A stretch of 32,005 nucleotides of DNA from an uncultured virus (IMG/VR IMGVR_UViG_3300013936_000020) (IMGVR_UViG_3300013936_000020); one strand, 5' to 3'; positions 6,730-23,312 are shown, numbered from the stretch's first letter. Notes: generated by a model not told the origin, from the letters alone. Translations and numbers: made by a program.

Positions 6730-6733
6730 TGAT

Positions 6734-7171: not shown

Positions 7172-7240
7172 TGATACTGGTAAATTCTTTTTCATTTTTA
7201 TTATTTTGTTAGGTTTTTGTTGATTAGTTAGTTGTGAAAA

Positions 7241-7278
7241 CAAAAAGGGGCGACCGTCCGAGAAGGATAGCCGCCCCT
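7241..7278 (-). terminator. Terminator between the convergent lysis and early operons
   Basis: AGGGGCGGCTATCC..GGACGGTCGCCCCT followed by a T-run on the - strand. Confidence 0.7.
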
Positions 7279-7306
7279 AATCATATATGAATAATGCACA
7301 GAAATA

Positions 7307-7795
7307 TCATTCCTCGTCCGCTTGCTCGAATCTGATGCCATACTTATTTACGAAGTATTGCTCTCTTTTCGTACGTCTCGTCTGAGAGTCATAGTACATG
7401 ATTGCATCGTCCACGGTGTCGTAAAAGTAATTATGCTTCCTTGCCAAGTGAAACATTGCCTGTTGTACTTTCTTTGGCGTTATGCAAACCTTGTATTTCG
7501 TCTCTTTCCTCATTCCGCTACGGACACGCCACGACTCGATTCTTCGTATAGTCTTAATCTTCTCGCCCAGCTTAGAGAGGTCTCTTTTTTTCAGTCCCTC
7601 TTGTCTTCGATTGTAGACATAAGCATTGATTCTCGCCTGAGCCTCTTCCGTATGCTTTAGATTGTTCTTTCTTGCGCACCTGATAATTGATGACTTGGCA
7701 AAGCCTGTTGCTTCATGAATCTCCCTTGAAGACATCGTGGGGTAAAGTTCCAGGACCTTCTCCGTCAGTCCTGGGATTTTTGATTGCCACGGCAT
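7307..7795 (-). CDS. Basic hypothetical protein with N-terminal HTH-like segment
   Basis: SSREIHEATGFAKSSIIRCA; K/R-rich; last gene of the leftward operon. Confidence 0.65.
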   Translation of the reverse strand: MPWQSKIPGLTEKVLELYPTMSSREIHEATGFAKSSIIRCARKNNLKHTEEAQARINAYVYNRRQEGLKKRDLSKLGEKIKTIRRIESWRVRSGMRKETKYKVCITPKKVQQAMFHLARKHNYFYDTVDDAIMYYDSQTRRTKREQYFVNKYGIRFEQADEE

Positions 7796-7801
7796 AGGTT
7801 A

Positions 7802-8395
7802 TCATTTAAGACCAGTAGAACCATACCCACCGTCACCTCGGTCTGTTTCGGATAATTCCTCAGTTTCCTCAATTTTAACATGAAGGATAGGTATGATTAT
7901 CATCTGTGCGCAACGATCACCAACATCATACATACGTGGAGGTAAAGGCTTGCAACCTTCTGCGATGTCTGGATAGTTCTCGTTTCTCCCAGGAAATGTC
8001 ACTTCTTGTGTCGAGAAATCCGTTTGCACAGAACCACTATAATCTCCAGGCTCAAAGCCGTTATCAATGATAGTTTTAGGCTCGCTTACGTTTGGCTTAT
8101 CGACAACCAACAATGTAGGTCTGAACTTAGCGAACACCTCACCTCTGTAATGGCAGTCCACCACGCCTACCGAGTTGCTTAGAGTCAAATCCTTCTTACA
8201 GATTGATGAGCGAGGGAACAACAATCCTACATATCCTTCGGGTATCTCGAAGGCAAGCCCGAAGCCGTACACGATATTGCCTTCTTCGTCAAACACTCGA
8301 CTTGTTGCCGTCAAGTCAAATCCTGCATCTGTTGGGTGTGCTTTCGTAGGCACTACCGCATTCTCTGTCAATCTCTTAATCTTTACTTTTACCAT
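7802..8395 (-). CDS. dut: Trimeric dUTPase with a large insertion
   Basis: Motifs AGFDL, PRSS, GVVDCHYRGE, GDRCAQ, RGDGGYGSTG. Confidence 0.95.
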   Translation of the reverse strand: MVKVKIKRLTENAVVPTKAHPTDAGFDLTATSRVFDEEGNIVYGFGLAFEIPEGYVGLLFPRSSICKKDLTLSNSVGVVDCHYRGEVFAKFRPTLLVVDKPNVSEPKTIIDNGFEPGDYSGSVQTDFSTQEVTFPGRNENYPDIAEGCKPLPPRMYDVGDRCAQMIIIPILHVKIEETEELSETDRGDGGYGSTGLK

Positions 8396-8416
8396 TTCTT
8401 TATTATGATTTAAAAA

Positions 8417-8671
8417 TTACTTTTTGTTTCTATACTGTCCGTGCAGGAATTTGAGAACATTAATCATAGCTAACTCATTCATTAGCTTCTGCTCATCGAA
8501 TATAGTCGTTACAGTTGCCTCGTCTCTGTTGAGGTCGTACAGCAATCCATCTGTTGGCTGATTAACAATATTCTCCAATTTCATCTTCACGACACCCTCA
8601 CAAGTGTTAAACAACACGCAACCTTCCTCGAAAGCCTTGCGCTGAACTTCTATTATATCTTTCTTTTCCAT
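8417..8671 (-). CDS. Hypothetical protein
   Basis: Tiles into the leftward operon. Confidence 0.6.
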   Translation of the reverse strand: MEKKDIIEVQRKAFEEGCVLFNTCEGVVKMKLENIVNQPTDGLLYDLNRDEATVTTIFDEQKLMNELAMINVLKFLHGQYRNKK

Positions 8672-8673
8672 AT

Positions 8674-8838
8674 CTAAAATGCTTTATCCAGTTCCTTAAC
8701 CGCCTTGCGTCTGTCAGCGTTTCCTATTCGCTTCCACCACAAGGTATCTTGATGCTTTCTTTTATTGTCGCTCAGTCCGAGCTGACCAGCACGAAACCAA
8801 TAGGCTATCATGCCGAAAATGTCACGTTCCTTGCTCAT
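8674..8838 (-). CDS. Small hypothetical protein (54 aa, not in ORF track)
   Basis: ATG 8838 to TAG 8674 fills the gap exactly (MSKERDIFG..). Confidence 0.5.
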   Translation of the reverse strand: MSKERDIFGMIAYWFRAGQLGLSDNKRKHQDTLWWKRIGNADRRKAVKELDKAF

Positions 8839-8841
8839 AAT

Positions 8842-9078
8842 CTATATTTTCTTAAGTTTTAACATCTGCCCAGAAGAAGGACCAGCAGGGTTCTTGAAGA
8901 GATACTTTTTCCCCTTGAGCCAAGGAAACCTTTTATAGAACCTCTTCCACTGAGCCTTACTTGCTTTCAACCTTGGTACTCGTGTCGGTGAATACGAGCC
9001 ATCCTTCTCCATCAATTCCAACCCCATCAAGTCATAGTACGAGTATCCCAAGCTAATACGTTTCCTCTTATGTTTCAT
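8842..9078 (-). CDS. Basic hypothetical protein
   Basis: Tiles into the operon. Confidence 0.55.
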   Translation of the reverse strand: MKHKRKRISLGYSYYDLMGLELMEKDGSYSPTRVPRLKASKAQWKRFYKRFPWLKGKKYLFKNPAGPSSGQMLKLKKI

Positions 9079-9084
9079 AAGCTA

Positions 9085-9330
9085 TCATTTACTTTTTATG
9101 AACTCACCATCCTTGAAGTCATACCACTCATACTTATTGCTTTCGTTGTATGCGTTCTTGTCATAGTGAGAGATAACTAATTGCAGTTTCACCTCCTTCT
9201 TGTCTCTTGCAAATTCTGCGGCGTGAATGAAGATGCCGTTGCGGTCGTTGATGAATATCTGCTTCATACGACCTCCTTCTTTCTCGTCACGCCACCATAG
9301 GTTTCCGTGATATTCTGTAAATGGTCTCAT
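9085..9330 (-). CDS. Hypothetical protein
   Basis: ATGA-coupled to the upstream ORF. Confidence 0.6.
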   Translation of the reverse strand: MRPFTEYHGNLWWRDEKEGGRMKQIFINDRNGIFIHAAEFARDKKEVKLQLVISHYDKNAYNESNKYEWYDFKDGEFIKSK

Positions 9331-9521
9331 AAGCTTTTCCTTTTTCTAAAAATGATTCTTATCGCCTTAGCGATGCGATGGTCTTTTTTCTTCCACTTAT
9401 GCTTTTCCCAATAGCTTTGCACATTAGGAAGCTCTCGCCAAAATAGCCAAGGATTTTTCCTGTATCTCCGAGGCTGCCTATAGCACGATTTCATTATTTT
9501 CCTTGCTTGTCTAACTTTCAT
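9327..9521 (-). CDS. Basic hypothetical protein (MKVRQARKI type)
   Basis: Tiles into the operon. Confidence 0.55.
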   Translation of the reverse strand: MKVRQARKIMKSCYRQPRRYRKNPWLFWRELPNVQSYWEKHKWKKKDHRIAKAIRIIFRKRKSL

Positions 9522-9524
9522 GTG

Positions 9525-9704
9525 CTACTTCCATTTTCGTTTAGTCAATATATGTAAGTCTAAATTCCAAAAAAGGAAGGCTATACAGATATGATAATGA
9601 ACACAATTACATTCTGTATATCTTGATACCCAAAAACTTGGTATCAAATGAATTAGCCAATCACTTCCAAGCATAGTGTAATTAAACTCGAATTTCGTTT
9701 TCAT
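9525..9704 (-). CDS. Small hypothetical protein (59 aa, not in ORF track)
   Basis: ATG 9704 to TAG 9525 fills the gap exactly. Confidence 0.45.
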   Translation of the reverse strand: MKTKFEFNYTMLGSDWLIHLIPSFWVSRYTECNCVHYHICIAFLFWNLDLHILTKRKWK

Positions 9705-9706
9705 TT

Positions 9707-10087
9707 CTACACCTCCTTGTCGAACTTTGACATTAACACTACAATGCGTTTGTATTTAGAAACAACTAACCCAAAAGGGACTAATCCGTTTTTTGCTCCA
9801 TTAAGAAACTTACAATCAAATCTCTTTAGTCTGTCATTCCATACTGTTTCAACAACACTTCCTGTCTCTAAGTTAGATATGATGTCACCAACATAAATAT
9901 CTTTCCCATTCATATCCTTTTCACCTGTGTACTGGCAGACGGTGGAAGGGTCAACAACATGTGAGCCTCCATTAATAGGAGCAATCATAGTCACTTTTTC
10001 TGCATGAAGCAAGTCACCTTCCACCCATTCTTTGTTATCAAGTCTCTTTGCCTTGAAACGAATATCTTCCAATCTCATATTAGTCAT
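9707..10087 (-). CDS. YopX family protein
   Basis: IRFKAKRLDNKEWVEG..VDPSTVCQYTGEKDMNGKDIYVGDI. Confidence 0.85.
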   Translation of the reverse strand: MTNMRLEDIRFKAKRLDNKEWVEGDLLHAEKVTMIAPINGGSHVVDPSTVCQYTGEKDMNGKDIYVGDIISNLETGSVVETVWNDRLKRFDCKFLNGAKNGLVPFGLVVSKYKRIVVLMSKFDKEV

Positions 10088-10284
10088 TTTAATACATATT
10101 CCAAATCAAATACAAAATCTCCTAACAAGTCTATTTTCTTTCTTATTAGTTCTGCTTCCAAATCAAACTTGTGTTCAACACAAAAATTTAATTCACTCAA
10201 CAGTTTATCTCTTTCAGACTTCCATTTAGCCAAAAGCTCATTTTTTTCTATCTTTTCCATATCACTCTTCTTTAAGTTCAACAA
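10084..10284 (-). CDS. Hypothetical protein
   Basis: Stop overlaps the YopX start. Confidence 0.5.
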   Translation of the reverse strand: MLNLKKSDMEKIEKNELLAKWKSERDKLLSELNFCVEHKFDLEAELIRKKIDLLGDFVFDLEYVLK

Positions 10285-10472
10285 TAGACAAGCTCAACTG
10301 GCTTATCGTTAAAACTCAGTTCTCTTCCTATCAGCTTCTTGATTGAGCCTTTGGGAAGTACAACTAAATTATAATAACCACCTGTAATCCATAATGAACC
10401 ATTCTTAGTTTTTGTAAGTTTTGCATCAGAAATAATTTCATTGCCCTTCTCATTTACAGCAACCCATGCCAT
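10278..10472 (-). CDS. Small hypothetical phage protein
   Basis: MAWVAV..LPKGSIKKLIGRELS..PVEL pattern recalled from Bacteroidales phages. Confidence 0.65.
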   Translation of the reverse strand: MAWVAVNEKGNEIISDAKLTKTKNGSLWITGGYYNLVVLPKGSIKKLIGRELSFNDKPVELVYC

Positions 10473-10474
10473 AA

Positions 10475-10834
10475 CTATTTCTCCTCTACTTTAACACCAA
10501 ATGTAGCACCATCGGCAAATGTGTATTCCTTGATAGCCTCTGAATATAATATGTTATCATTGATATCAGTTATTATACTATACTCATTCTCACCAATTAG
10601 TTTAGTCCACCCAAACGGCTGATGCTTCAACATTTCTTTCCAGCACTCCTCTGCGTTGGCAAAAGGACGATACTTTGGAGATGGCTTGATGCGAAATTTC
10701 ATACCTCCATCTAACTCCAAATCTTCTATGTCCATCCAAGGTGATTTAAGACCTTTATAAATACCTTCAATCTGCCCACCTTCTGCAAAAGCTTGCAAGA
10801 TAGGCAATAGTTGCCTTGCTTCATCACGTGTCAT
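10475..10834 (-). CDS. Hypothetical phage protein
   Basis: QAFAEG..YRPFANAEECWKEMLKHQPFGW..TFADG pattern. Confidence 0.7.
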   Translation of the reverse strand: MTRDEARQLLPILQAFAEGGQIEGIYKGLKSPWMDIEDLELDGGMKFRIKPSPKYRPFANAEECWKEMLKHQPFGWTKLIGENEYSIITDINDNILYSEAIKEYTFADGATFGVKVEEK

Positions 10835-10836
10835 TG

Positions 10837-11016
10837 TTAATCCTCCTTATCCTTTAACTGCTCTTTAAGACAATTAATGATTATCTGCTTATCCTCATTT
10901 TCTTTAACTACATTTTTGTATTCCTTGATGAGGTTGTTAATTACACTCTGTTTACCAAGTCTATAACAGAGAAAGTACCCCATAACAACATTCATTAATA
11001 CTAATACTACTATCAT
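10837..11016 (-). CDS. Small membrane-anchored coiled-coil protein
   Basis: Start reassigned to ATG 11016 to avoid overlap; N-terminal TM. Confidence 0.5.
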   Translation of the reverse strand: MIVVLVLMNVVMGYFLCYRLGKQSVINNLIKEYKNVVKENEDKQIIINCLKEQLKDKED

Positions 11017-11066
11017 ACCTCTTTCTATTTGCCCTCTCCCTGCTGTCACCAAGGAGAGGTGGTTAG

Positions 11067-11375
11067 TTAATCTGTTACTACTTCCCAATCTTCTGCAAAC
11101 ACATCTGATACAGAAGGAACCCAAGAATCTGCTCTACCATCGGGGTTGATAATCAGCATCTGATTAGTATAGTCAATGTGTGGATTCTCACGCTTCATCA
11201 AGATGTCCTTTGCCGACTGAGGAAGAGACTGCATCTTAGGGATGATGTCACCTGTAATGTGTGCAGGAACTTGCTTCACGACAAACAGACCTTTACCATT
11301 CCAACCACTACGGCGAATAGCTTCACCTTTCTTTAAGTGCTCAATAGCACAACCAAAATTAATTTTTTCTTTCAT
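11067..11375 (-). CDS. DUF2829 / Tad2-like anti-defence sponge protein
   Basis: FG.AI..LK.G..I.RSGWNGKG and WVPS..DV.AEDW motifs. Confidence 0.85.
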   Translation of the reverse strand: MKEKINFGCAIEHLKKGEAIRRSGWNGKGLFVVKQVPAHITGDIIPKMQSLPQSAKDILMKRENPHIDYTNQMLIINPDGRADSWVPSVSDVFAEDWEVVTD

Positions 11376-11544
11376 ATCACTACTATTTAGCCCGAAGGCT
11401 GTTAAACGTTTAATCTTCTATTTATAATCCGTATAACCTCTTGTATGTGCATAGCCTCTGTGCTGGTACTTGCATACCGATTGTTATATAAGGATAACAT
11501 ATTTTTAAGTTGAATTAAATTTTGTCTTGTAAGATGGTTCATAT

Positions 11545-11958
11545 CTATACCTCCATTTCTGATTTTAAGCCCAATCCGAAGAGAAGATGCTGCAAGGTAT
11601 GTACGTAAGGTATTTCAAAAGAATACGCAGACCAATACAAATCATCAAACTTAAATTTCTCCTCTAACTTATCATACTTAATGTAAATATCATCTTTATA
11701 GTATTGGTATAAAGATGTGCCTATATTAGTATACTTCCACCCATTCTTTTTAAGAACATCTGATACAAGCTTGATAGGAGCTATATTTTCTTCTTCAAGC
11801 CAAAGTCTCTCCCCTGTGTCTTTTATTTTCATAACACATTTTCCTTTATGGCTTAAATCATATCCAACAAATTCACAAATGAGCCCTTTTGGATATTGGC
11901 AATTATACTTTGGGTCTGTCATTACCAAATCTCCAGGGATATATAAATTTTGTTCCAT
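11545..11958 (-). CDS. Hypothetical phage protein
   Basis: YIPGDLV..PIKL..LKKNGW..YVHTLQHLL pattern. Confidence 0.7.
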   Translation of the reverse strand: MEQNLYIPGDLVMTDPKYNCQYPKGLICEFVGYDLSHKGKCVMKIKDTGERLWLEEENIAPIKLVSDVLKKNGWKYTNIGTSLYQYYKDDIYIKYDKLEEKFKFDDLYWSAYSFEIPYVHTLQHLLFGLGLKSEMEV

Positions 11959-11960
11959 AC

Positions 11961-12149
11961 TTACTTTCCTTTCTCAACGAATATTACATTCTTGCCATCT
12001 GAACGATTACCGCTTTCACACATTAGGAAACAAGCTCCCCTCACTGGTGTGTCAAAGAAGAAACACCCTTCGCAAGGATGCTTTGGGTTGTTAAATGTAT
12101 TCTCCTTAACCTCCAAGATGATTTCTTCACCAATCTTATATTCTTTCAT
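11961..12149 (-). CDS. Small Cys-rich protein
   Basis: CEGCFF..C...C..RSDGKNVIF. Confidence 0.65.
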   Translation of the reverse strand: MKEYKIGEEIILEVKENTFNNPKHPCEGCFFFDTPVRGACFLMCESGNRSDGKNVIFVEKGK

Positions 12150-12331
12150 TTCTCACCTCCTATCTTGTCAAGTTTGTCACAAATAAATGAAGAACTCATA
12201 GCACATGCAATCGCCAATGGTATGCGCCATAGTGAATACTCGCTTACTCCAGTATATTCAACCAGGTTGTTGTATAGGGCAAATACCAAGACCATATAAC
12301 AAATAAAATACTTAGTCAATGTCCAAATCAT
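12146..12331 (-). CDS. Small two-TM membrane protein
   Basis: Two hydrophobic helices; ATGA-coupled on both sides. Confidence 0.55.
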   Translation of the reverse strand: MIWTLTKYFICYMVLVFALYNNLVEYTGVSEYSLWRIPLAIACAMSSSFICDKLDKIGGEK

Positions 12332-13047
12332 TTTTCACCTCCTTTATAATCTTTAGTTGTACCTATCAGTTTTGCTGTTTCCTCGTTGTAAGGGAGGCAA
12401 TAGCTAAAACCGTAACAGCAATTTATTGTTACAAATCTATTCCCTTTCATGTGGCTGAACAGACTTGCTACCCAAGTATCAGCATCTTCATCCCTAACAA
12501 TAACCTTGTCAAATGGCTTAGGAGTCCACTTTGGCTTGTTTGGCTCAATCTCCAAGGTCTCCATGTTGAGCTTGCCATCAAGTCTCTCTTCAATGGTGTT
12601 GAGGTAATATTCCCCTGACTCTTCATCTTCCTTCATGAACAAAGAAGTCAAAGGCTGGTTCTCTGACAGATACTTGATGTTATTCTCATTCCTGCCATCC
12701 AACCAATGTTTTGCCCTGAATTGAGTATAGTCATCATTATACCAGCCTTCAAAGAAACATTCACATGTGTCCTCATTGTTAACCAGTACATCGCCTTTCT
12801 TCCAGGCGAACTTACCCCAGTCCCTCATGGCATTGGAAGGAAAGAGCATAGAAACTCCATTTCGATTATATCTCCCATCTGCCATGAAGGTCTGATGAAT
12901 TTGACCTTCGTCTGTTACGAAGATGGTATATTCACCCAAGTCTTTTTCAACCTTATCAAATGTTACATCACCAAAAATAGGTGAGTATAACTTCGTGCCT
13001 TTTGGCTTATTCTTCAATATCTCTGCTATGTTAATTTCCTTTTCCAT
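12328..13047 (-). CDS. Modular hypothetical phage protein
   Basis: INIAEILK..GTKLYSPIFG N-terminus and KPFDKVIVRD..CLPYNEETAKL C-terminus. Confidence 0.75.
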   Translation of the reverse strand: MEKEINIAEILKNKPKGTKLYSPIFGDVTFDKVEKDLGEYTIFVTDEGQIHQTFMADGRYNRNGVSMLFPSNAMRDWGKFAWKKGDVLVNNEDTCECFFEGWYNDDYTQFRAKHWLDGRNENNIKYLSENQPLTSLFMKEDEESGEYYLNTIEERLDGKLNMETLEIEPNKPKWTPKPFDKVIVRDEDADTWVASLFSHMKGNRFVTINCCYGFSYCLPYNEETAKLIGTTKDYKGGEK

Positions 13048-13208
13048 AATTTTAGTTTCTTAATAAGTGACACTTAACAACCTTGTTAACAAGATGAGGT
13101 TGCTTTTTATTTATCTCGTCAACAATCCTTTGTTCCAGCTCGGATTGTGTCTCCCACCGCTTTCGCTTCGGGATGGTTAATGTGTCGGCAACAATTCTGC
13201 TGCCTTCG

Positions 13209-13451
13209 CTAAAGGTCAATACCATCTTCATATTCTTCGTCTGTCAATATAATTTCATTATTTAATAGGCAAGCAGAGACATCTACTACCCTTGCATCAT
13301 TTCCAAGCATATTAGATAGCCATCCGCTGTTGTCTAAGACATCCTCGATGTTAGCCTCATTGATTGAGTGTTCGGAATCCATTTCCTCGTCAACGACTAT
13401 AGTCATAGAAACTTGGAATGTCTTTCTTCTCTTCTTAACAAGATTTGCCAT
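13209..13451 (-). CDS. Acidic hypothetical protein
   Basis: 80 aa, D/E-rich; tiles into the operon. Confidence 0.55.
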   Translation of the reverse strand: MANLVKKRRKTFQVSMTIVVDEEMDSEHSINEANIEDVLDNSGWLSNMLGNDARVVDVSACLLNNEIILTDEEYEDGIDL

Positions 13452-13453
13452 AA

Positions 13454-13639
13454 TTATTCCACCACTTTATAAATTACACTTTTCTTGTCCTTTCTCTCGG
13501 CTCGGCTACACTTGAACTGCTTACAAAAGTCGTCATACAAACTTCTTGCTATCTCGTCAAAAAAGCAGCCGTCGCAACTATTGTTTAGCGACTCCATAAC
13601 CTCCAACGTGAGGCGAGAACCAACTGGGATTTCTTCCAT
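13454..13639 (-). CDS. Small Cys-rich protein, paralog of 11961-12149
   Basis: CDGCFF..C...C..RKDKKSVIY. Confidence 0.65.
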   Translation of the reverse strand: MEEIPVGSRLTLEVMESLNNSCDGCFFDEIARSLYDDFCKQFKCSRAERKDKKSVIYKVVE

Positions 13640-13641
13640 AA

Positions 13642-14001
13642 CTAAACCTTTTTGTGTTTCAACTCTTCCAAGTCGTGTTTTAAACGCTCGTGGAAATTGT
13701 CCTCACCATCATCACCACTCAGAAGCCAGTCGATACGTTGCGCATAGACCTCTGCTTTCTTCAACAAGGCGATTCCTTTCTTAAACTCTCTGATTGTCTC
13801 TTTGGAGTAACCAGACGCATTCGGCATCGTATGATGATGTTTCTTGATGTACTCCATTTCTTTGTCATCGAGCCAATGGTCTTCGATGTATCTACTGATT
13901 TCATATTCATCTTCCAAAGAATGTCCATAAATCTCATCCTCAATCTCTGTGTATATGTCAGCGATTCTGTACTGAGCATATTCAAAAGCCCCTCCACTCA
14001 T
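13642..14001 (-). CDS. Hypothetical phage protein
   Basis: MSGGAFEY..RIDWLLSGDDGE pattern. Confidence 0.7.
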   Translation of the reverse strand: MSGGAFEYAQYRIADIYTEIEDEIYGHSLEDEYEISRYIEDHWLDDKEMEYIKKHHHTMPNASGYSKETIREFKKGIALLKKAEVYAQRIDWLLSGDDGEDNFHERLKHDLEELKHKKV

Positions 14002-14003
14002 AA

Positions 14004-14927
14004 TTATTCTCTTTTAAGTTTAAGTTGTCTCATCTTAGCCTTGATTGCGCCGACAGAGCGACCAAGAGCCTTGGCGAGTTCTTCGTCGCCCATCTTGTCG
14101 TAGTTGCGAGCCAAGAAATTCACCTGTATGTTATTCCACGGAAGGAACGAGTTGTTCTGGTGTTCCTCTCCGTCGTAATCGACGCCATTCAACTTCAGTC
14201 CATCGTCAGCCGCTCTTTTAATCCGTTCCAAGTCACAAACCTTTAGCGCAAGGACTTCGAGAGCCTTGAAAATCGCACCACCCTCCTTGAAATACTCAGC
14301 GTCCTTGTCAGGAATAATCATATCGGCGACCTCACGCATACTTGAATACATACCGAACATCGGTTGCAGGAAGGCTTGACTTGGCTTTACTCCAGGAATG
14401 CTGAAACCGAGATTGCTCATCACTTCGTCGTATCGTTGGCTTAGGTCGTGCAACATGATTGAAAGGTTGTAGGCGACAACAGTCTGCGATTGCAGCTTGT
14501 GTTCCTTGATGTCATGCTTTAGCAGGATGTTGTCGGTTGTGTAGAATAGCCTCATAACGTCAGCCTTCAAGTCTTCCTCCATGCTGTCAGTAATATCAAG
14601 CCATAACTGATATTGGGATATTTTGCTTGTGTGCGTCTTGAAGACATTCATTAGGCTCTCGGAACGCAGAAATGCTTCCTTGATGCGGTATTTTAGTGTA
14701 TGCCTAAATAAGTCCTTTCTTTGCGACAGCATGTCAAGCAAATCTTTTATTGAAGTCTGCGTTATCTCAGCGAGCGAGCCAATCATCATGTAGTAGAGTG
14801 ACGTAACCCTATCTATTGTCCGTTGGCTTGGAACTTTTACAGGCACTCCTGCGAGCACAGGTCTCGATGTGTTTGGATTCCAATTCATCTGCATAGGCTT
14901 ACATTTTGTTTTCGACCGCCAACGCAC
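14004..14927 (-). CDS. Helical protein with C-terminal HTH-like domain (true start probably slightly downstream)
   Basis: C-terminal W...QVNFL..Y..MGDEELAKALGRSVGAIKAK. Confidence 0.7.
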   Translation of the reverse strand: MRWRSKTKCKPMQMNWNPNTSRPVLAGVPVKVPSQRTIDRVTSLYYMMIGSLAEITQTSIKDLLDMLSQRKDLFRHTLKYRIKEAFLRSESLMNVFKTHTSKISQYQLWLDITDSMEEDLKADVMRLFYTTDNILLKHDIKEHKLQSQTVVAYNLSIMLHDLSQRYDEVMSNLGFSIPGVKPSQAFLQPMFGMYSSMREVADMIIPDKDAEYFKEGGAIFKALEVLALKVCDLERIKRAADDGLKLNGVDYDGEEHQNNSFLPWNNIQVNFLARNYDKMGDEELAKALGRSVGAIKAKMRQLKLKRE

Positions 14928-15059
14928 AGACGAGGCAGGAAATCATCAATACCATCAACCAGACGTGCTCGATTGCGAAGAACACCATCGCAATTCCTGC
15001 CAACGCTGCGGAGGCTATCAGCAGGAACATTACTATAATATGCTTATATTTCTTCATCG

Positions 15060-15362
15060 TTATCGTACCTCCTTTCCGTCGTCATACACAGCCTTGTAGC
15101 TGTCAAGTTGCTGTGATACGTGAACCAACTTGTGATTGTAGCTATCTCGTTCCGCTCTCGCCTTGCTGATGAAGATGAAGCTAACGATGAACGCTACGAC
15201 TATCGTTGCCACGATGAACACCCAAGGCAGCTTGTAAACCGCCTTGTTGATTGCCCTGCCGACGTTGCGAAAGAACACCCCTGTGTAGAGGATTGAGTAA
15301 ACGAACGCCTCCTTGGTGGTTGCGTTGGTTACGAAACTGATTTTGTCTTCTTTCTGTGCCAT
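15060..15362 (-). CDS. Membrane-anchored hypothetical protein
   Basis: Central TM helix. Confidence 0.6.
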   Translation of the reverse strand: MAQKEDKISFVTNATTKEAFVYSILYTGVFFRNVGRAINKAVYKLPWVFIVATIVVAFIVSFIFISKARAERDSYNHKLVHVSQQLDSYKAVYDDGKEVR

Positions 15363-15486
15363 AATTCCAAAAATTATTAGTTATCGTTTTCTACTGCACC
15401 AGTTAGATGTTGATTGCCAGTACCCTGCCAGCCAAATCTCCTTCGGTGTCGCCTTCGGGTGGTCTCTAAGCCACTCGTCGGCTTGT

Positions 15487-16164
15487 TCATTTACGTTCGC
15501 CATTGTCTGCTCGTTTTGATTCTTGCTTTACTTTGTCTTGAAGACCGCCCAAGGGATTTGATGTTACGTCACGACCTTTGAGCTTGCAATACTCTTCCCA
15601 GGATATAGCTTTTTTCTTCGCCTCGATAGCCTCTTGTTTCTGTTTCTCGGCAAGTTTCTCACTATCAACCATAGCACGTTGCTCAAACAAGATGTATGAG
15701 TAATCTTTGAGACCAATCAGAACGTCTTGCGGATTGACGGTACGACCTGCGTACAGCTTGCCGTAATCCCCAAGCGAGAAGCAATAGAAGAAATGTGTAA
15801 GCTCGGCAGGAGTAAGATGATAGTACTCTTGTCTTATCCTCGCTGCAATGCCGTTCACCTGATAGACAGTGACGGATTCAAAAGCACCGAGGAACGTGAA
15901 TAGTTCGATGAGCATCTTCTTTACCCACCACTCGCTTGCTCCATCGGAAAACTTGTTGTCAATTTCCACGAGGGAAAGACCTCCTTGTTCCACCGCTTGG
16001 TGTGCGGTCGTTATCATATCCTTGCGCTTCGATAATGCAGGATATTGCCAAAGGAAATCCATATATCCCTTGCCGAACCTTTCGACAGCCGCTGCGATGT
16101 CAGCTTGTGAGGATTGCTGCTGCCTTGTTAATTGATTGCTGTTGTCTTGCATAACTATTAACAC
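15487..16164 (-). CDS. Replication-module protein (helicase-loader position)
   Basis: Follows the initiator-like gene; YYHLTPAELTHFF..GDYGKLY motif; function inferred from position. Confidence 0.55.
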   Translation of the reverse strand: MLIVMQDNSNQLTRQQQSSQADIAAAVERFGKGYMDFLWQYPALSKRKDMITTAHQAVEQGGLSLVEIDNKFSDGASEWWVKKMLIELFTFLGAFESVTVYQVNGIAARIRQEYYHLTPAELTHFFYCFSLGDYGKLYAGRTVNPQDVLIGLKDYSYILFEQRAMVDSEKLAEKQKQEAIEAKKKAISWEEYCKLKGRDVTSNPLGGLQDKVKQESKRADNGERK

Positions 16165-16507
16165 TATTGTCTTTAGGAGCGAACAAGCCTGTGTAGTTGT
16201 TGCCCATCGAGAAATCCACTATCTGCTTTGCGTATTCGGGGTTTCCTCCGCTCATTTGCAGTAGTTTCTTCTTTAGGGCTGCAAGTCCACGTGGCTTGTA
16301 GGACTGTTTCTTTTCTTTCTTGTATGCCAACCACTCGTCCAGTGCCTCTTGACACGGATAATCGCCTTGTGGCGGCTCTTCTACTTGGAAATCTGATAAG
16401 TCATACCCAAGAGCGAAAGCAGCCCCTATACAGAAGATTCTCTGCTTCTCTCGGTCGTTGGGATATAACTCGCTTGATTTCTGTCTTACTTCTTTAGGTA
16501 GTATCAT
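16100..16507 (-). CDS. Replication initiator-like protein (C-terminal domain type)
   Basis: WLAYKKEKKQSYK..AKQIVDFSMGNNYTGLF resembles the C-terminus of phage replisome organisers. Confidence 0.55.
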   Translation of the reverse strand: MILPKEVRQKSSELYPNDREKQRIFCIGAAFALGYDLSDFQVEEPPQGDYPCQEALDEWLAYKKEKKQSYKPRGLAALKKKLLQMSGGNPEYAKQIVDFSMGNNYTGLFAPKDNSVNSYARQQQSINKAAAILTS

Positions 16508-16947
16508 ACGCCTAAGTATTTTTGTTGATTTTCTACATCATTCTGAATGTGAAGCAAGGCGATATACTCGTCAGAGGAAGGAAAGTCAAATCCTGTTTCC
16601 TCCTTAGACCAAGCACGAAAGTTGTCTATTGACTTACTCATTTCGTCCTGTGTTAGGTCGGCAGAGGAACGTAGGTAAGTGTAAATCTCGCCTGTGAACT
16701 TATCTATTCCCTCTCTGACGAATATATCCTTGTTTGCGGTCAGCTTATAGAAATGAGTTTTAGTTTCCTCTAACGAATAACCAAACTGCAAGCCGAAATA
16801 AGATAGCATTAAATGTAAATATTTCAGCTGTTGAAGCGATTTTGGACGCTTCTCTGTCAATTCAACGATGCTACCTTTGTTCTGTAACTCCACGCATCGG
16901 TCTCTGAACTTTTGAAGCTCGATGCCATTCTTTAAGTTGTACCACAT
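16504..16947 (-). CDS. NinB/Orf-like recombination mediator
   Basis: KSLQQLKYLH..RSSADLTQDEMSKSIDNF; located in the recombination module. Confidence 0.6.
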   Translation of the reverse strand: MWYNLKNGIELQKFRDRCVELQNKGSIVELTEKRPKSLQQLKYLHLMLSYFGLQFGYSLEETKTHFYKLTANKDIFVREGIDKFTGEIYTYLRSSADLTQDEMSKSIDNFRAWSKEETGFDFPSSDEYIALLHIQNDVENQQKYLGV

Positions 16948-16995
16948 ATCTCACAATTAAATGCTTGTTTAATCATTTCGACCTTGCGTCTTACC

Positions 16996-17475
16996 TCAAA
17001 AAGGCAGCGAATCTGCACTCTGTCCTGCTTGACCTTGTTGTGGTTGCTGAGGAGGGAAAGGCTGACCGTTAGGCACTGCGCTACGCATAGCCTGTTGTGC
17101 GGCTTGCTGCGGTGCTTGCGCTCCTGCGGCAGGGTTGTTCGCACTCCACTGCTGACCGCCTTGTTTGTAGCCTCCTTGTGGTTGTTGATAACCTTGCTGA
17201 CCTCCAGGCTGTGGTCGCTGAACGTTCCAAGCCTGTACGCTGTTGAACCATTTCTGATTGTATTCCCTTGCGTTGATGTCGAACTGAACGTTAAGCATTT
17301 CTCCAACTTGGATATTAAATTGGTCTATCTTTTCGTTTACAACATCGAATGCGAGTTTCTTTGGGTACTGTTCCTGTGTTTCGAGAACGTATGTGATACT
17401 TCTCCATTGATTGCCTCTTGCAGAAGTACCGCTTCGTTCTGGTAACGCTACTATAATTTTTCCGAATAATTCCAT
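16996..17475 (-). CDS. DUF3127-family ssDNA-binding protein
   Basis: OB-fold-like N-terminus (FDINAREY..KWFNSVQAW), Q/G/P linker, DSLPF tail. Confidence 0.85.
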   Translation of the reverse strand: MELFGKIIVALPERSGTSARGNQWRSITYVLETQEQYPKKLAFDVVNEKIDQFNIQVGEMLNVQFDINAREYNQKWFNSVQAWNVQRPQPGGQQGYQQPQGGYKQGGQQWSANNPAAGAQAPQQAAQQAMRSAVPNGQPFPPQQPQQGQAGQSADSLPF

Positions 17476-17477
17476 AA

Positions 17478-18170
17478 CTATTTGCTGATTATTTCTTCAA
17501 TGAATTGATTTGCGAGGATAACACGCTCTTCCATAAGTTTGATGTCCTCCTCGTTACGTTCAATGTCCGCCCAGTGGATAGGCTTTGAGAGCCAAGGGCA
17601 ATACGTAATGAAGATTCCGCTCTTTGCGTTTGTGCAGCTCATTTCAGCCATTATCTGCCAATAGTACTTCGGCTCTGTGTCTTTGAGTGAGGCTGCATCG
17701 TGGATATAAGTACGGTACTTCATGTAAGTATTGAGGTTCGGACACTTGACTTCAAGAATGCGAATATCCTTACCATCACGACCATATATTGCACCATCAG
17801 GACTTGCGGCGAAATGAGGTATCGTGTCGTGCTTGCAGGAAGAAAGCTCTACAATCTCGCTTTCTGGAAATTCCATATTCTGAAAAAGCCTAAGTGCTTC
17901 ATCTTCCTGTTCCGATCCCCACTGCATCGCCTTGGTGGTGAAAGATGTTTGGTCGAGGTAGTCTTGGAAGGCATCATCGTCATTCAAGAAATCGGGATTA
18001 AAGAGGCGTTCGGCTGCGACCTGCATAAGATACGACTTAGCCGTGTCACTCCAAACTTCATCTTTCTTGCGACCAGACTTCATAATGTCGGCTACCTTGC
18101 TCCCACAAATTGAACCGATGCGACTACGAAACCATTCCAACGAACGTTGCTCAATACCCTCTGCTATCAT
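17478..18170 (-). CDS. YqaJ / lambda-exonuclease family recombination nuclease
   Basis: QRSLEWFRSR, AMQWGSEQE, ASPDG, LEVKCP, YYWQ. Confidence 0.92.
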   Translation of the reverse strand: MIAEGIEQRSLEWFRSRIGSICGSKVADIMKSGRKKDEVWSDTAKSYLMQVAAERLFNPDFLNDDDAFQDYLDQTSFTTKAMQWGSEQEDEALRLFQNMEFPESEIVELSSCKHDTIPHFAASPDGAIYGRDGKDIRILEVKCPNLNTYMKYRTYIHDAASLKDTEPKYYWQIMAEMSCTNAKSGIFITYCPWLSKPIHWADIERNEEDIKLMEERVILANQFIEEIISK

Positions 18171-18708
18171 TTGCCTTCCTCCTTCTTAGCCGCTGCATCA
18201 GCCTTTGCAGCCTCGGCAGCTTTGGCAGCGAGATTTTCTTTCTTCTCGCTTTCAAGGTTGTCAACATACTCAGGAGCGAAAGCATCAATATCCAAGTCTT
18301 GGACGTCTGACGTGTTGGTGTTGATTACAGCTTGGTCGAAAGTAACAGCGTTCTGCATTTCAATGGACTTAGGTGCAAATTTCAATATTGATTTGAGAAC
18401 CGTCTTTTGCGCCATAGCATCAAAATCTGATTTCCATGGGGAATTGAAACCAGCACGGAAGGCTTGGCTGAACTTTGTTGCGTGAGCCTTAACCTTGTCA
18501 ATATCCCAATAAGCAACCTTTGTAAAGCCATTCAGAAGCTCGAACTTAGCCATATAGCCGATAACCTTGTCAGACTTCTTTTGTTTCTTGTCGAAAACGT
18601 AATCTTCGTCGAACTCGTCACCCGAAATATACTCACCTTCGTGGACTGGAGCTGCAAGAATCTTCTTGAATTGACCGCTGCGTTGGCAAAGTTGCAATAA
18701 ACCTAAAT
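18167..18708 (-). CDS. recT: RecT single-strand annealing protein, exon 2
   Basis: LGLLQLCQRSGQ..PWKSDFDAMAQKTVLK..PKSIE; splicing to exon 1 gives a 279-aa RecT. Confidence 0.92.
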
Positions 18709-19516
18709 CACTAACCCACCGATTTACCATTTCAGTGGAGTGGACTATCTCTTCACCATTACAGGTGTCTCGCACTTGGGCGTGTGATAAATCCACGCCT
18801 ACTCGGTTACACTCATCACCGATAGTCTCTACACTCCAATATTTCCAAACAAATCCTCGAAAATGTTTTCTAACTCCTTTAAGAGCCTTACAGAGCCTGT
18901 CGTTCCCACATTGAAAATGTTCTGCTGCATCTTTTATAGAGCGGAAATAGCAAAAGCTAAATTCATCCTCTGTGTACCCATAAATGGCTTTATAAATAGG
19001 AGGATGCGGAATTTTTCCTTTATTAGCTTTCGATATTTTTATTCTTGACTCAAAAGTATGTTTCTTTCCAAGATTTGCTACCCTCAGTTTTTGACGTGTT
19101 TCTTCGCTTACCGAATGTCCGATTTTTGGTCCAGTAAGTTGTGCTAACTTGACTTTCTTCTCTTTATCGGTTTTTCTTTCCCACTGTGCTCGTGCGCACT
19201 TTGCAAGATAAGCACGTTCATTGTCGGAAGGATGATAACCTTTAGAGCCCTTGCCTCCAATAGTCATATTATAAGATGCAGAAAGTTTGTTTATCCAGAA
19301 AATTTCCTTTGAATCAAGCTCTTCTTTTTGGCATTCCTCTAAAACCGAAAATGTGAAATTCCCAAATCCGTATTTTTTTAAAGCTCTACAGATAAGCCTA
19401 TTCCCTTTGGTGCTACAAGGACATCTGTGCTCCATCATTCTACGATGTAAATCCACACTTTGCCCGACGTATATATCCCCTGTAATATTATTAGTTAAAG
19501 AATAAATACCAATCAT
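18167..19516 (-). CDS. Intron-encoded GIY-YIG homing endonuclease with NUMOD repeats, open in frame into recT exon 2
   Basis: GIYSLTN..IYVGQS..R; NUMOD3-like HSVSEETRQKL/HTFESRIKIS; NUMOD1-like FRSIKDAA..GFVWKY; no stop before 18167. Confidence 0.9.
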   Translation of the reverse strand: MIGIYSLTNNITGDIYVGQSVDLHRRMMEHRCPCSTKGNRLICRALKKYGFGNFTFSVLEECQKEELDSKEIFWINKLSASYNMTIGGKGSKGYHPSDNERAYLAKCARAQWERKTDKEKKVKLAQLTGPKIGHSVSEETRQKLRVANLGKKHTFESRIKISKANKGKIPHPPIYKAIYGYTEDEFSFCYFRSIKDAAEHFQCGNDRLCKALKGVRKHFRGFVWKYWSVETIGDECNRVGVDLSHAQVRDTCNGEEIVHSTEMVNRWVSDLGLLQLCQRSGQFKKILAAPVHEGEYISGDEFDEDYVFDKKQKKSDKVIGYMAKFELLNGFTKVAYWDIDKVKAHATKFSQAFRAGFNSPWKSDFDAMAQKTVLKSILKFAPKSIEMQNAVTFDQAVINTNTSDVQDLDIDAFAPEYVDNLESEKKENLAAKAAEAAKADAAAKKEEGK

Positions 19517-19638
19517 TGTTTAAAAATATTAAAGCACGGTATTGCCCTTTATTGGAGGGTTTCACCGTTAGCCATACATAGTATGACACCGTTTTTTCTT
19601 ACGTTCACGAGATTTTACTTGACCATAACTTTTGGTTT
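18709..19638 (-). mobile_element. Group I self-splicing intron (IA-like, 930 nt) in recT
   Basis: Exon UUGGCU pairs with IGS GGUCAA including a U.G at the 5' splice site; terminal G 18709; P7 strands AGAGACUA (18823-18830) and GAUAGUCC; P3 UCUCGU/GCGAGA; P4/P5 CGGUGAAACCCU..AGGGCAAUACCG; two extra hairpins between P7 and P3; splicing restores QFQIG-Y-LGLLQL. Confidence 0.93.
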
Positions 19639-19936
19639 AGCCAATTTGAAACTGTGCCTTCTTTCCGTAAGGGATGATGTAGCACTGACCCAATGTAGGG
19701 ATAACCTGCAACTGCATCGTGGCTGCAACCATCGCTGCTCCGATAATGCTCATTGGCTCTGCGTTGCGAAGTTGTGGGTTTCCGTTGGCTACACTGATAA
19801 CCGAACTCATAAAGCTGTTAGCCATCTGTGGGCTATTCCAAACCTCGTTAAGTTTACCAACAACGGCAGGAGAGTGCATCAACTCTCCCAACGACATACC
19901 AGTATTTTGTTGCTGCGTTGTAACTTGTGTTGTCAT
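19639..19936 (-). CDS. recT: RecT single-strand annealing protein, exon 1
   Basis: SIIGAAMVAA..L..LGQCYIIPY..AQFQIG; unspliced reading stops at the TAA created by the exon/intron junction. Confidence 0.92.
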
Positions 19937-20104: not shown

Positions 20105-20368
20105 TTAGTGTACCTTATTTATGTATCTGTAATACGTCTCCACCCTTACCGAGCCTCCCTTTCCGTCGGGTCGGTCGTAGTAGTGTGGAACTGAATCGAG
20201 AATCCTCCCCTCGCCTGCCGTATAGTTGAGATATACGCTTCTTGTCTGTATCGCAAGAATCGTCTCCCTGTCGAGTTCCATAAGGCAAGAATGAATGTCC
20301 CGTAGACGAAAGACCGCCTTTGCCGTACCGACAGGCAACCTTGCAATCACTTGGTCAAGTCTACTCAT
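20105..20368 (-). CDS. Hypothetical protein
   Basis: Overlaps the upstream stop. Confidence 0.6.
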   Translation of the reverse strand: MSRLDQVIARLPVGTAKAVFRLRDIHSCLMELDRETILAIQTRSVYLNYTAGEGRILDSVPHYYDRPDGKGGSVRVETYYRYINKVH

Positions 20369-20846
20369 CTATTTCCTCTTTTTCTTCCTCGGAAGAGTTA
20401 AAGTAACAATCGAATATCGTGGTGTCGGAGATTGAGCAAGTCTCGTAGTCGAGCATGGAGCCCTTCATGACATTGTTGTCAATGTAGCTCTGCGCCTTGT
20501 TTGTCGAGGCTGCTTGCACAAGATACGTCACCTTTGACTTCTTCTCCTTGCCTGACTTCTCATCAATGGTGATGAATGAGAGCTTGCACTTGTAGAACTT
20601 GTCATCTTTCTCTTCTTCGGAGGTGAACACCTCTCCGTAAGCAGCAGGATTGATGTTGACAATATTCATGTCCCCGCTGCAAAAAGGCGACATTTCCTCG
20701 ATAGCCATCTTCTCAGCCTCGCCGAACGAGAGGGCATCGACCACGATGTTTTTCTTCACCATCTTCTCCACTCCATCCTCCTGCGTCTCTTGCATCGCAA
20801 GCTGAACCTCGAAGAACTTTGCGGAATGAACTTTTAATTCTGCCAT
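20361..20846 (-). CDS. DUF4494-family protein
   Basis: VVDALSFGEAE..KFYKCKLSFITIDEKSGKEKK..YLVQAAS. Confidence 0.85.
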   Translation of the reverse strand: MAELKVHSAKFFEVQLAMQETQEDGVEKMVKKNIVVDALSFGEAEKMAIEEMSPFCSGDMNIVNINPAAYGEVFTSEEEKDDKFYKCKLSFITIDEKSGKEKKSKVTYLVQAASTNKAQSYIDNNVMKGSMLDYETCSISDTTIFDCYFNSSEEEKEEIDE

Positions 20847-22381: not shown

Positions 22382-22464
22382 CGGTGGGTGTAGGGATCGA
22401 ACCTACGAATCGTTTCCGACTTACACGTTAGCAATGTGCTGCATTACCGCTCTGCCAACCCACC
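22382..22464 (-). tRNA. tRNA-Ser(GCT)
   Basis: GGTGGGT/ACCCACC acceptor, loop TTGCTAA, long variable arm, GGTTCGATCC T-arm, G discriminator; one mismatch in the anticodon stem. Confidence 0.9.
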
Positions 22465-23240: not shown

Positions 23241-23312
23241 TCGCCCGAAGGAGAATCGAACTCCTAATCTCGGTTTAGGAAACCGATGTTTTATCCATTG
23301 AACTATCGGGCG
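23241..23312 (-). tRNA. tRNA-Arg(CCT)
   Basis: Full cloverleaf: CGCCCGA/TCGGGCG, TCGGT-TTCCTAA-ACCGA, AGGAG-TTCGATT-CTCCT. Confidence 0.93.

What the first reader, a model, noticed from the sequence alone, without database searches (positions are those of the whole stretch)
18709..19638. Group I intron interrupting a phage recT gene
Seen: exact splice sites can be derived (GGCT|AAACC...GTTAGTG|ATTTAGG), with a P1 U.G pair, omega-G, P3/P4/P7/P8 and a plausible P10 (AAACC/GGUUU). Splicing rebuilds the conserved RecT motif QFQIGYxGL in a 279-aa protein. Established: phage group I introns are mostly described in td, nrd, DNA polymerase, terminase and lysin genes. To my knowledge recT is an unusual host, and the intron sits in a recombinase that could serve its own homing repair.
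Basis: partly seen in the sequence, partly recalled or inferred. Interest (0 to 1): 0.75.

Follow-up and report, generated by a model that had tools for sequence, protein, structure and literature searches.

The report
Self-splicing intron in phage recT
A phage recombination gene (recT) is interrupted by a 930-base self-splicing group I intron that carries its own homing endonuclease gene, a well-known kind of mobile element found here in a host gene not previously reported for it.

Summary
On the minus strand, recT is split at 19639|19638 and 18709|18708 by a 930-nt insert. In related viral contigs, 125 of 129 loci with both RecT halves are uninterrupted there. Removing the insert gives a 279-aa RecT that aligns without a gap to intron-less relatives.

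The insert is a group I intron of the IA type (P7.1/P7.2 present). A GIY-YIG/NUMOD3 endonuclease ORF sits in the P6 loop. Rfam does not detect the window's copy. Other evidence supports it:
- Six further distinct introns sit at the same site in RecT genes that are 30-59% identical. They support all ten core helices: 99.5% of 401 cells pair and 20 of 58 pairs covary, against 0-3 in slid controls.
- Between two diverged copies the RNA cores are 96% identical. The exons are 71-74% and the ORF 78.5%.
- An ORF-less relative matches Rfam Intron_gpI end to end (36.8 bits, E 5.8e-8).
- The 5' core matches the annotated Streptococcus thermophilus phage lysin intron.

No RNA data exist, so splicing is inferred. 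One oddity: the endonuclease ORF has no stop codon and reads in frame into exon 2. This is a new member of a known kind, of moderate interest.

The parts
19639..19936 (-). recT exon 1 (99 codons plus the T of the Tyr codon). Its last 6 nt, UUGGCU (19644-19639), form the 5' strand of P1.
   Evidence: Pfam RecT profile 2-61, E 6.1e-12; ORF list; coordinates
18709..19638 (-). Group I intron, 930 nt. The first two bases (AA) complete an in-frame UAA stop with the exon's last U. The last base is omega-G (18709).
   Evidence: Absent from 125 of 129 related loci; structure and covariation; coordinates
19619..19624 (-). Internal guide sequence GGUCAA (P1 3' strand). Its first G pairs with the exon's last U.
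   Evidence: 6/6 pairs in 7/7 introns, invariant
19606..19612 (-). P3 5' strand UCUCGUG. It pairs with 18768-18774 (UGCGAGA), which lies next to P8.
   Evidence: 7 pairs, 4 with changes on both sides, 98% of cells paired. Rfam's model places P3 the same way in L156.
19571..19603 (-). Two peripheral hairpins between the P3 5' strand and J3/4. Hairpin I is 3 bp and weak in the window. Hairpin II is GUCAUAC/GUAUGGC.
   Evidence: Hairpin II folds in 7/7 introns with different sequences. L148 lacks one C-G pair on both strands. The S3b lysin intron has the same layout.
19536..19568 (-). P4 (ACGGUG/UACCGU) enclosing P5 (CCC/GGG, only 3 bp).
   Evidence: P4: 6 pairs, one covarying (U-A vs G-C, 3 vs 4 sequences). 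P5 is invariant.
19516..19535 (-). P6 5' strand. It pairs with 18833-18852, giving 20 contiguous bp that close off the ORF. Its last pair includes the A of the ORF's AUG.
   Evidence: 12-20 contiguous bp in 7/7 introns. In the proximal 8 pairs, 4 have changes on both sides.
18836..19516 (-). GIY-YIG homing endonuclease ORF (functional part about 227 aa, to ...GFVWKYW). There is no stop codon. The frame continues through the 3' core and exon 2 to 18167 (449 aa in all).
   Evidence: Pfam GIY-YIG 8.4e-10, NUMOD3 9.6e-7, I-HmuI NUMOD-like 6.5e-5; PHROG homing endonuclease 9.6e-35; I-TevI catalytic domain 1LN0, E 2.4e-4; same open frame in L120
18743..18832 (-). Catalytic core: J6/7 GUAGA, P7 GACUAU/AUAGUC, P7.1 CGGU/ACCG, P7.2 GGCGUG/CACGCC, P3 3' strand, P8 CACC/GGUG, J8/7 AAGAG.
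   Evidence: P7 is invariant. P7.2 has 3 pairs and P8 has 4 pairs with both-side changes. Coordinates.
18709..18738 (-). P9 (CCACUGA/UCGGUGG) followed by GUUAGUG, ending in omega-G.
   Evidence: 7 pairs, 4 with both-side changes, 100% paired
18167..18708 (-). recT exon 2 (AT of the Tyr codon, 179 codons and the stop).
   Evidence: Pfam RecT profile 64-191, E 7.3e-25
17478..18170 (-). YqaJ-type exonuclease gene directly downstream, the expected partner of RecT.
   Evidence: PF09588, E 3.7e-19

Best explanation
The 930 nt at 19638..18709 (minus strand) are a mobile group I intron of the IA type.

Inferred mechanism: after transcription the RNA folds into P1-P9 with the P3-P7 pseudoknot. A free guanosine bound in P7 attacks the U.G-marked 5' splice site (GGCU|AAACC). 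The freed exon then attacks after omega-G (GUUAGUG|AUUUAGG). This joins the exons and restores the Tyr codon and a 279-aa RecT annealing protein. RecT works with the YqaJ exonuclease encoded next to it.

The GIY-YIG endonuclease encoded in the P6 loop is inferred to cut intron-less recT alleles at the conserved QFQxG|Y site during co-infection. Recombinational repair would then copy the intron in (homing).

Shown here: the insertion is precise, intron-less alleles exist, the RNA core is conserved, the fold covaries, and there is homology to annotated group I introns.

Inferred only: splicing itself, GTP dependence, and endonuclease activity and target.
For: (1) Precise insertion. 125 of 129 related loci with both RecT halves lack the insert. 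The spliced product is gapless against intron-less RecTs.

(2) Selection at the RNA level. Identity between the window and the diverged copy L148 is: exon 1 71.3%, 5' core 95.8%, endonuclease ORF 78.5%, 3' core 96.2%, exon 2 73.7%.

(3) Fold. On 7 recT introns, 58 pairs in 10 helices give 99.5% of 401 cells paired. With partners slid by 1-3 columns the figure is 36-42%. 20 pairs change on both sides, against 0-3 when slid. 0 of 500 shuffles reach the observed percentage paired, covarying pairs or covariation score. P6 is 12-20 contiguous bp in 7/7.

(4) Group I landmarks in 7/7: exon ends in U paired to G of the guide, the intron ends in G, and an in-frame stop (U|AA or U|GA) sits at the 5' splice site.

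(5) Covariance model. The ORF-less relative L156 shares the R/P7.1/P7.2 block. It hits Rfam RF00028 over model 1-253 with 36.8 bits, E 5.8e-8, and P3, P6, P7, P8 and P9 are placed as in my model.

(6) Homology to annotated introns. The 5' core matches S. thermophilus phage S3b/ST3/J1 at 77.6% over 75 nt, E 6e-5. That record is annotated 'putative lysin ... group I intron' and has the same helix order. The R region matches the 3' end of the insert in the join-annotated PVP-SE1 primase/helicase.

(7) The ORF is a GIY-YIG/NUMOD3 homing endonuclease.
Against: Rfam's Intron_gpI model does not reach significance on the window itself. Even L156 is below the curated gathering score (36.8 vs 50).

The structure was derived from the same seven sequences on which it was counted. 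They fall into about four lineages, so the shuffle and slide controls flatter it.

P1, P5 and P7 never vary, so covariation says nothing about them. P5 is only 3 bp, hairpin I is only 3 bp in the window, and P10 is weak.

The endonuclease ORF runs through the whole 3' core without a stop. A translating ribosome would unfold the ribozyme.
Confidence: 0.88

Rival explanations
1. A decayed intron. The ribozyme once spliced but no longer does in this phage, so recT is a pseudogene split into a 99-aa stub and an endonuclease-RecT fusion ORF.
For: There is no RNA evidence of splicing. The endonuclease ORF has lost the stop codon that five sister introns keep inside J6/7. In the sister copy L148 the endonuclease gene carries a deletion of about 245 nt, so this lineage's mobile part is decaying. 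Hairpin I and P5 are short.
Against: All ten core helices are intact in the window, with 1 unpaired cell (the fifth, optional P8 pair) out of its 56 cells with letters. The cores are 96% identical to L148 while the flanking coding DNA has diverged to 71-78%, which means continuing selection on the RNA. Both exons keep full-length, high-scoring RecT sequence.
Confidence: 0.08
2. A free-standing GIY-YIG endonuclease gene inserted into recT with no ribozyme. RecT is then made as two polypeptides or not at all, as in phage genes split by free-standing homing endonucleases.
For: A stop codon follows exon 1 directly, and a separate ATG-initiated ORF follows. Rfam has no significant hit on the window.
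Against: This does not explain about 250 nt of non-coding or overprinted sequence that is conserved at 96%. It does not explain 20 covarying base pairs in a group I topology, the exon-U/omega-G boundaries in 7/7, or the homology to annotated introns.
Confidence: 0.02
3. The read-through is functional. The endonuclease is meant to be made as a fusion with the C-terminal 180 residues of RecT.
For: The frame is open from the ATG at 19516 to the recT stop (449 aa). It is also open from the endonuclease remnant into exon 2 in the independent contig L120.
Against: All 5 nucleotide differences between the window and L120 in the core-encoded tail are non-synonymous. They lie in RNA loops or keep RNA pairs, so there is no protein-level selection. 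The five sister introns stop at UAG before the core. By my own arithmetic, not a tool result, an open 43-codon stretch that is also in frame has a chance probability of roughly 0.04, and it was noticed after the fact.
Confidence: 0.05

Closest known systems
[quoted passage not shown] 2000)
   Same: This is the closest nucleotide match to the 5' core: 77.6% over 75 nt, E 6e-5. The helix order is the same, including the unusual placement of two hairpins between the P3 5' strand and J3/4, and P7.1/P7.2 between P7 and the P3 3' strand. The record is annotated as a group I intron with an endonuclease ORF. A passage read in PMC11878797 cites it among phage introns previously classed IA2. A passage in PMC5601072 calls them group IA.
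   Different: The host gene is lysin, not recT. The ORF lies in the P8 loop and P6 is a local hairpin. Here the ORF is in P6. I recall that splicing of that intron was demonstrated, but I could not read the paper (PMC111580 is not held).
Phage T4 td intron with I-TevI
   Same: Both are phage group I introns carrying a GIY-YIG endonuclease. The window's endonuclease is most similar among solved structures to the I-TevI catalytic domain (1LN0/1MK0, E 2.4e-4). From memory, not tested here, the td ORF also sits in the P6 region and its translation is restrained by RNA structure. The review PMC3984707 (passage) says ORFs that extend into the core are tightly controlled.
   Different: No T4-like phage is among the organisms listed for the nucleotide matches. 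The host gene differs. I-TevI has its own stop codon (recalled).
Group I introns in recA of Bacillus anthracis and relatives, and of phage 0305phi8-36
   Same: A self-splicing intron inside a recombinase gene (passages in PMC3984707, and PMC2504315).
   Different: RecA is unrelated to RecT. Those introns are described as having IA1/IA3 features (PMC2504315). No sequence comparison was made here.
Intron in the primase/helicase gene of Salmonella phage PVP-SE1 (GU070616)
   Same: The R/P7 region matches at 82.9% over 35 nt, weakly (E 2). The match lies at the 3' end of an HNH-endonuclease-carrying insert in a CDS annotated as a two-piece join.
   Different: Different host gene and endonuclease family. 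The match is too short to be significant alone.

Membership tests
Group I intron | Precise intervening sequence whose removal restores the host reading frame; intron-less alleles exist | tested here: met
   125 of 129 loci are uninterrupted. The spliced 279-aa RecT is gapless at the junction against 4 intron-less homologues.
Group I intron | P1: 5' exon ends in U, paired as U.G with an internal guide sequence | tested here: met
   UUGGCU/GGUCAA, 6/6 pairs in 7/7 introns. It is invariant, so covariation gives no support.
Group I intron | Terminal G (omega-G) at the 3' splice site | tested here: met
   G at 18709. The intron ends in G in 7/7 full introns, and the 3' end of L240 reads ...CUG|AUA.
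Group I intron | P3-P7 pseudoknot with the P7 (R/S) guanosine-binding helix and J8/7 | tested here: met
   P3: 7 bp with 4 covarying pairs. P7 GACUAU/AUAGUC is invariant, and the two cross. Rfam aligns both the same way in L156. That GUAGAGACUA / AAGAGAUAGUCC resemble the classical R and S consensus is recalled.
Group I intron | P4-P5-P6 domain | tested here: met
   P4 has 6 bp (1 covarying), P5 has 3 bp (invariant, short), and P6 has 12-20 bp with 4 of the proximal 8 pairs covarying.
Group I intron | P8 and P9 helices | tested here: met
   P8: 4 of 5 pairs covary. P9: 4 of 7 pairs covary.
Group I intron | Match to the curated covariance model (Rfam RF00028) at its gathering score of 50 bits | tested here: inconclusive
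   Window: no hit and 8.7 bits on the 3' half. ORF-less relative L156: 36.8 bits, E 5.8e-8, full length, below 50. The model was not given an ORF-deleted version of the window's intron. PMC11878797 (passage) reports that ribozyme signatures are often missed beside endonuclease loops.
Group I intron | Guanosine-dependent self-splicing; ligated exons in RNA | not testable with these tools
   No RNA run holds the stretch. This needs a bench assay.
Subgroup IA (IA2-like) | Extra P7.1/P7.2 hairpins between P7 and the P3 3' strand (definition recalled) | tested here: met
   P7.1 CGGU/RCCG has one-sided change only. P7.2 has 6 bp with 3 covarying pairs. Rfam treats this block as an insertion between P7 and P3' in L156. 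No subgroup-specific models were available.
GIY-YIG homing endonuclease | GIY-YIG catalytic domain plus a DNA-binding module, encoded within the intron | tested here: met
   PF01541 39.3 bits (cut-off 22.6). NUMOD3 29.1 bits (cut-off 20.4). I-HmuI NUMOD-like 22.9 bits, below its cut-off of 27. I-TevI catalytic domain E 2.4e-4. Catalytic residues were not checked one by one, and cleavage is not testable here.
RecT (PF03837) single-strand annealing protein | Full RecT domain after exon joining | tested here: met
   Profile 2-61 (46 bits) and 64-191 (88.1 bits), both above the cut-off of 24. The product is 262/279 identical to an uninterrupted homologue.

The most novel reading that the evidence does not exclude
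Because the endonuclease ORF has no stop codon in two independent contigs, the enzyme can be completed only from unspliced pre-mRNA, as a 449-aa fusion to the C-terminal 180 residues of RecT. On the excised intron it would be a non-stop message. Splicing and endonuclease production would then be mutually exclusive fates of each transcript. The nuclease would also arrive at its cut site already tethered to part of the annealing protein that repairs the break, giving a built-in coupling of cleavage and homing repair.
Probability: 0.05. Interest if true: 0.65.

Novelty: new member of a known kind. Interest (0 to 1): 0.4.

Why it matters
The finding adds recT to the list of phage genes colonised by group I introns. 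Three full-text searches found no paper linking the two. It is also not a single accident. The same QFQxG|Y site is occupied in at least seven distinct RecT genes, and a sister intron sits in a Sak4-like annealase gene.

It also gives a concrete case where the general Rfam model fails on a genuine intron, because of an ORF in P6 and extra hairpins. That is relevant to how many phage introns automatic annotation misses. In such genomes recT would be mis-annotated as two fragments plus a 449-aa chimera.

The stop-less endonuclease ORF overprinting the whole 3' ribozyme core could serve as a test case for the conflict between translation and ribozyme folding.

Tried and rejected
RNA evidence: the look-up of sequencing runs listed no RNA holder. 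It listed only 14 DNA runs, each holding 0.05 of the sampled words. I did not lay reads, so no statement on expression or habitat is made.

Whole genome: none is held for this window.

Rfam directly on the window: four attempts gave nothing significant.

Nucleotide search of 1.9 kb against annotated phages: only a 72-nt match in a Leuconostoc phage RecT gene, so there is no close cultured relative.

Genome-contig scan with the 17-mer: 118 stretches were reported. One search examined 137 pattern matches in viral and genome loci together. Nearly all genome hits are coding coincidences (peptide ETIGDD in unrelated enzymes), and only L240 carries the intron core. My S-element filter flagged 14 loci, three of which (L141, L152, L194) share nothing beyond the motif. 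I picked the 15 true members by the shared flanking block GTGTAGAGACTATCGGTGATGARTGTARCCGAGTAGG.

Alternative pairing GGAGUG/CACUCC (extending P7): rejected because it is not conserved in L155 and relatives, while P6 and P9 covary.

Alternative P3 assignments (CGGUG after P7 with UACCG, or CUCGU with AUGAG): rejected in favour of the covarying helix next to P8.

Foley et al. 2000 could not be read.

Earlier scan notes held nothing on this.

Full report
**What is there.** The recT gene lies on the minus strand. A 99-codon ORF (19936..19640, stop at 19639-19637) ends ...AQFQIG. It matches Pfam RecT profile positions 2-61. A 449-codon ORF (19516..18167) begins as a GIY-YIG/NUMOD3 endonuclease and ends as RecT profile positions 64-191.

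**Is it an insertion?** Two scans of viral contigs with the two RecT halves gave 133 loci.
- In 129 loci both halves were found.
- In 125 of these the halves are separated by one codon (TAC or TAT, Tyr).
- Two loci are the window's own contig (gap 933).
- L120 carries a 684-nt version of the same insert.
- One distant locus (L060) gave gap 54, which I did not pursue.

Joining the exons at GGCT|...G|ATTTAGG gives a 279-aa RecT. It aligns without a gap across the junction to four uninterrupted homologues (262/279 identical to L082). The boundary could be shifted by one base on sequence grounds. Only the stated register ends the exon in U and the intron in G.

**Is it a ribozyme?** Rfam does not say so for the window. 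There was no hit at gathering threshold on the whole window and none at E<=10 on 18500-19850. The 3' half alone gave 8.7 bits, E 5.8, on model positions 121-253 and the correct strand. The 5' half alone gave nothing. Three other lines of evidence do say so.

*First, conservation.* The window and L120/L148 are diverged copies:

| Segment | Identity |
|---|---|
| Exon 1 | 71.3% |
| 5' non-coding block (122 nt) | 95.8% |
| Endonuclease ORF (aligned part) | 78.5% |
| Last 130 nt of the insert | 96.2% |
| Exon 2 | 73.7% |

The ORF has drifted about as much as the exons. This suggests that both lineages inherited the insert and that the two RNA blocks are held by selection.

*Second, comparative structure.* A 17-nt core motif found 19 viral and 118 genome-contig stretches. 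Most genome hits are coding coincidences. I took 15 loci that share the whole R/P7.1 block as true members.
- Eight of the 15 have RecT halves on both sides at the same QFQxG|Y site. L240 (only 617 nt held) has the downstream half. Six have none.
- After dropping L153, which was identical to L144 in the regions examined, seven distinct recT introns remain. Their RecT proteins are only 30-59% identical.
- Their alignment (A1) supports ten helices: P1, P3, P4, P5, P6, P7, P7.1, P7.2, P8 and P9.
- 99.5% of 401 cells pair, against 36-42% when partners are slid by 1-3 columns.
- 20 of 58 pairs change on both sides, against 0-3 when slid.
- 0 of 500 shuffles reach the observed pairing, covarying-pair count or covariation score. 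6 of 500 reach the number of further pair types.
- P3, P6, P8 and P9 have four covarying pairs each, P7.2 has three and P4 has one. P1, P5 and P7 are invariant.
- P3 and P7 cross, which is the group I pseudoknot.
- P6 is a 12-20 bp long-range helix that closes off the ORF in all seven.
- A 6-7 bp hairpin before J3/4 also changes sequence while keeping its pairs. L148 has lost one C-G pair from both strands.

Caveats: the structure was derived from these same sequences, and they represent about four lineages.

*Third, links to recognised introns.*
- L156 is a relative with no ORF, inserted in another gene. It matches Rfam Intron_gpI over the whole model (1-253) with 36.8 bits, E 5.8e-8. This is below the curated 50 bits. 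The model's P3, P6, P7, P8 and P9 fall on the helices I had assigned, and the P7.1/P7.2 block appears as an insertion between P7 and the P3 3' strand.
- The window's 5' core matches the lysin-gene intron of S. thermophilus phages S3b, ST3 and J1 (77.6% over 75 nt, E 6e-5). That record is annotated as a group I intron with an endonuclease ORF.
- That intron has the same order of elements, including two hairpins between the P3 5' strand and J3/4. This placement differs from the textbook P1-P2-P3 order and probably contributes to Rfam's miss.
- A passage in PMC11878797 lists that intron among phage introns previously classed IA2. It notes that IA2 is heterogeneous and that ribozyme signatures are often missed next to endonuclease loops.

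**Other group I features.**
- P1 is UUGGCU/GGUCAA with U.G at the splice site.
- The last base is G in all seven introns.
- All seven begin AA or GA, so an in-frame stop (UAA/UGA) sits exactly at the 5' splice site. The review PMC3984707 (passage) describes such stops as a likely way to stall ribosomes so the ribozyme can fold.
- P10 is uncertain. In L145 and L151 the same AACC/GGUU pairing is the far end of a longer continuous P10.

**The endonuclease.** The ORF has a GIY-YIG domain, a NUMOD3 motif and an I-HmuI-like module that scores below its Pfam cut-off. It matches PHROG homing endonucleases and the I-TevI catalytic domain.

In five sister introns the ORF is 183-189 aa and stops at the UAG inside J6/7 (GUG-UAG-AGACUAU). 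In the window's lineage the ORF is longer, and a 4-nt length difference in the P6 3' strand puts that UAG out of frame. The frame then stays open through the whole 3' core and, in phase, into exon 2. The independent contig L120 shows the same open frame, so this is not an assembly error.

The five nucleotide differences between the two copies in this tail are all non-synonymous. They lie in RNA loops or preserve pairs. I therefore read the read-through as incidental. In L148 the endonuclease gene is already broken by a deletion of about 245 nt. That fits the usual cycle of invasion, endonuclease decay and loss.

The distal end of P6 includes the A of the AUG. This could restrain translation, but that is inference.

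**Context.** recT is followed by a YqaJ-type exonuclease and a DUF3127 / single-strand-binding-like protein. Together they form a normal phage recombination module.

Sister introns of the same subfamily sit in two other genes:
- A Sak4-like AAA_24 annealase gene (L154), with an HNH ORF upstream of P4.
- A probable terminase large subunit. That naming rests on a weak PHROG hit. L140 carries an HNH ORF in P8, and L156 has no ORF.

**Literature.** Three full-text searches found no paper that links a group I intron with recT or a single-strand annealing protein gene. Introns in recA of Bacillus and of phage 0305phi8-36 are known (passages). Supplements were not consulted, so large intron surveys may list such cases.

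**Verdict.** This is a genuine group I intron of a known phage type in a new host gene. Splicing is inferred, not shown.

Noticed in passing
window 18167-19516 (-); L120:3619-4446: The intron's endonuclease ORF has no stop codon. It reads through the entire 3' ribozyme core and, in frame, into recT exon 2 (449 aa). The same open frame is present in an independent diverged contig. Five sister introns stop at a UAG inside J6/7.
   Followed up: partly
L154:1122-2621: A sister intron with the same R/P7.1/P7.2 core interrupts a Sak4-like (AAA_24, phrog_124) annealase gene near its start. It carries an HNH endonuclease ORF placed upstream of P4 instead of in P6. The subfamily therefore occupies two unrelated classes of phage annealing proteins.
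   Followed up: partly
L156:1451-1716; L140, L142, L150, L157: The same intron subfamily sits in a gene weakly matching terminase large subunit (phrog_5909, E 1.2e-6). L156 is ORF-less (about 270 nt). L140 has an HNH/NUMOD endonuclease ORF in the P8 loop, and L142, L150 and L157 show the same 3' sequence. This looks like with-and-without-endonuclease stages of one intron.
   Followed up: partly
L240 (genome contigs, 617 nt held): A bacterial or archaeal genome-collection contig carries the 3' core of a recT intron of this family followed by RecT exon 2. This is possibly a prophage. I did not look up the record title.
   Followed up: no
window 19638-19637 and the first two bases of the six other introns: All seven recT introns begin AA or GA right after the exon's final U. 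An in-frame UAA/UGA stop therefore lies exactly on the 5' splice site.
   Followed up: yes
window 22382-22464 (-) and 23241-23312 (-): Two tRNA genes (Rfam 52.8 and 62.3 bits). The first has a long variable arm.
   Followed up: no
Genome-contig loci L158-L275: The 17-nt intron core motif also occurs in many cellular genomes as coding sequence for the peptide ETIGDD in at least two unrelated conserved protein families. These are false positives for any short-motif intron screen.
   Followed up: yes
window 16996-17475 (-) and 20361-20846 (-): DUF3127 (PHROG: single-strand DNA-binding protein) and DUF4494 proteins flank the recombination genes. From memory these domains are typical of Bacteroidota and their phages, which hints at the host. 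This was not tested.
   Followed up: no
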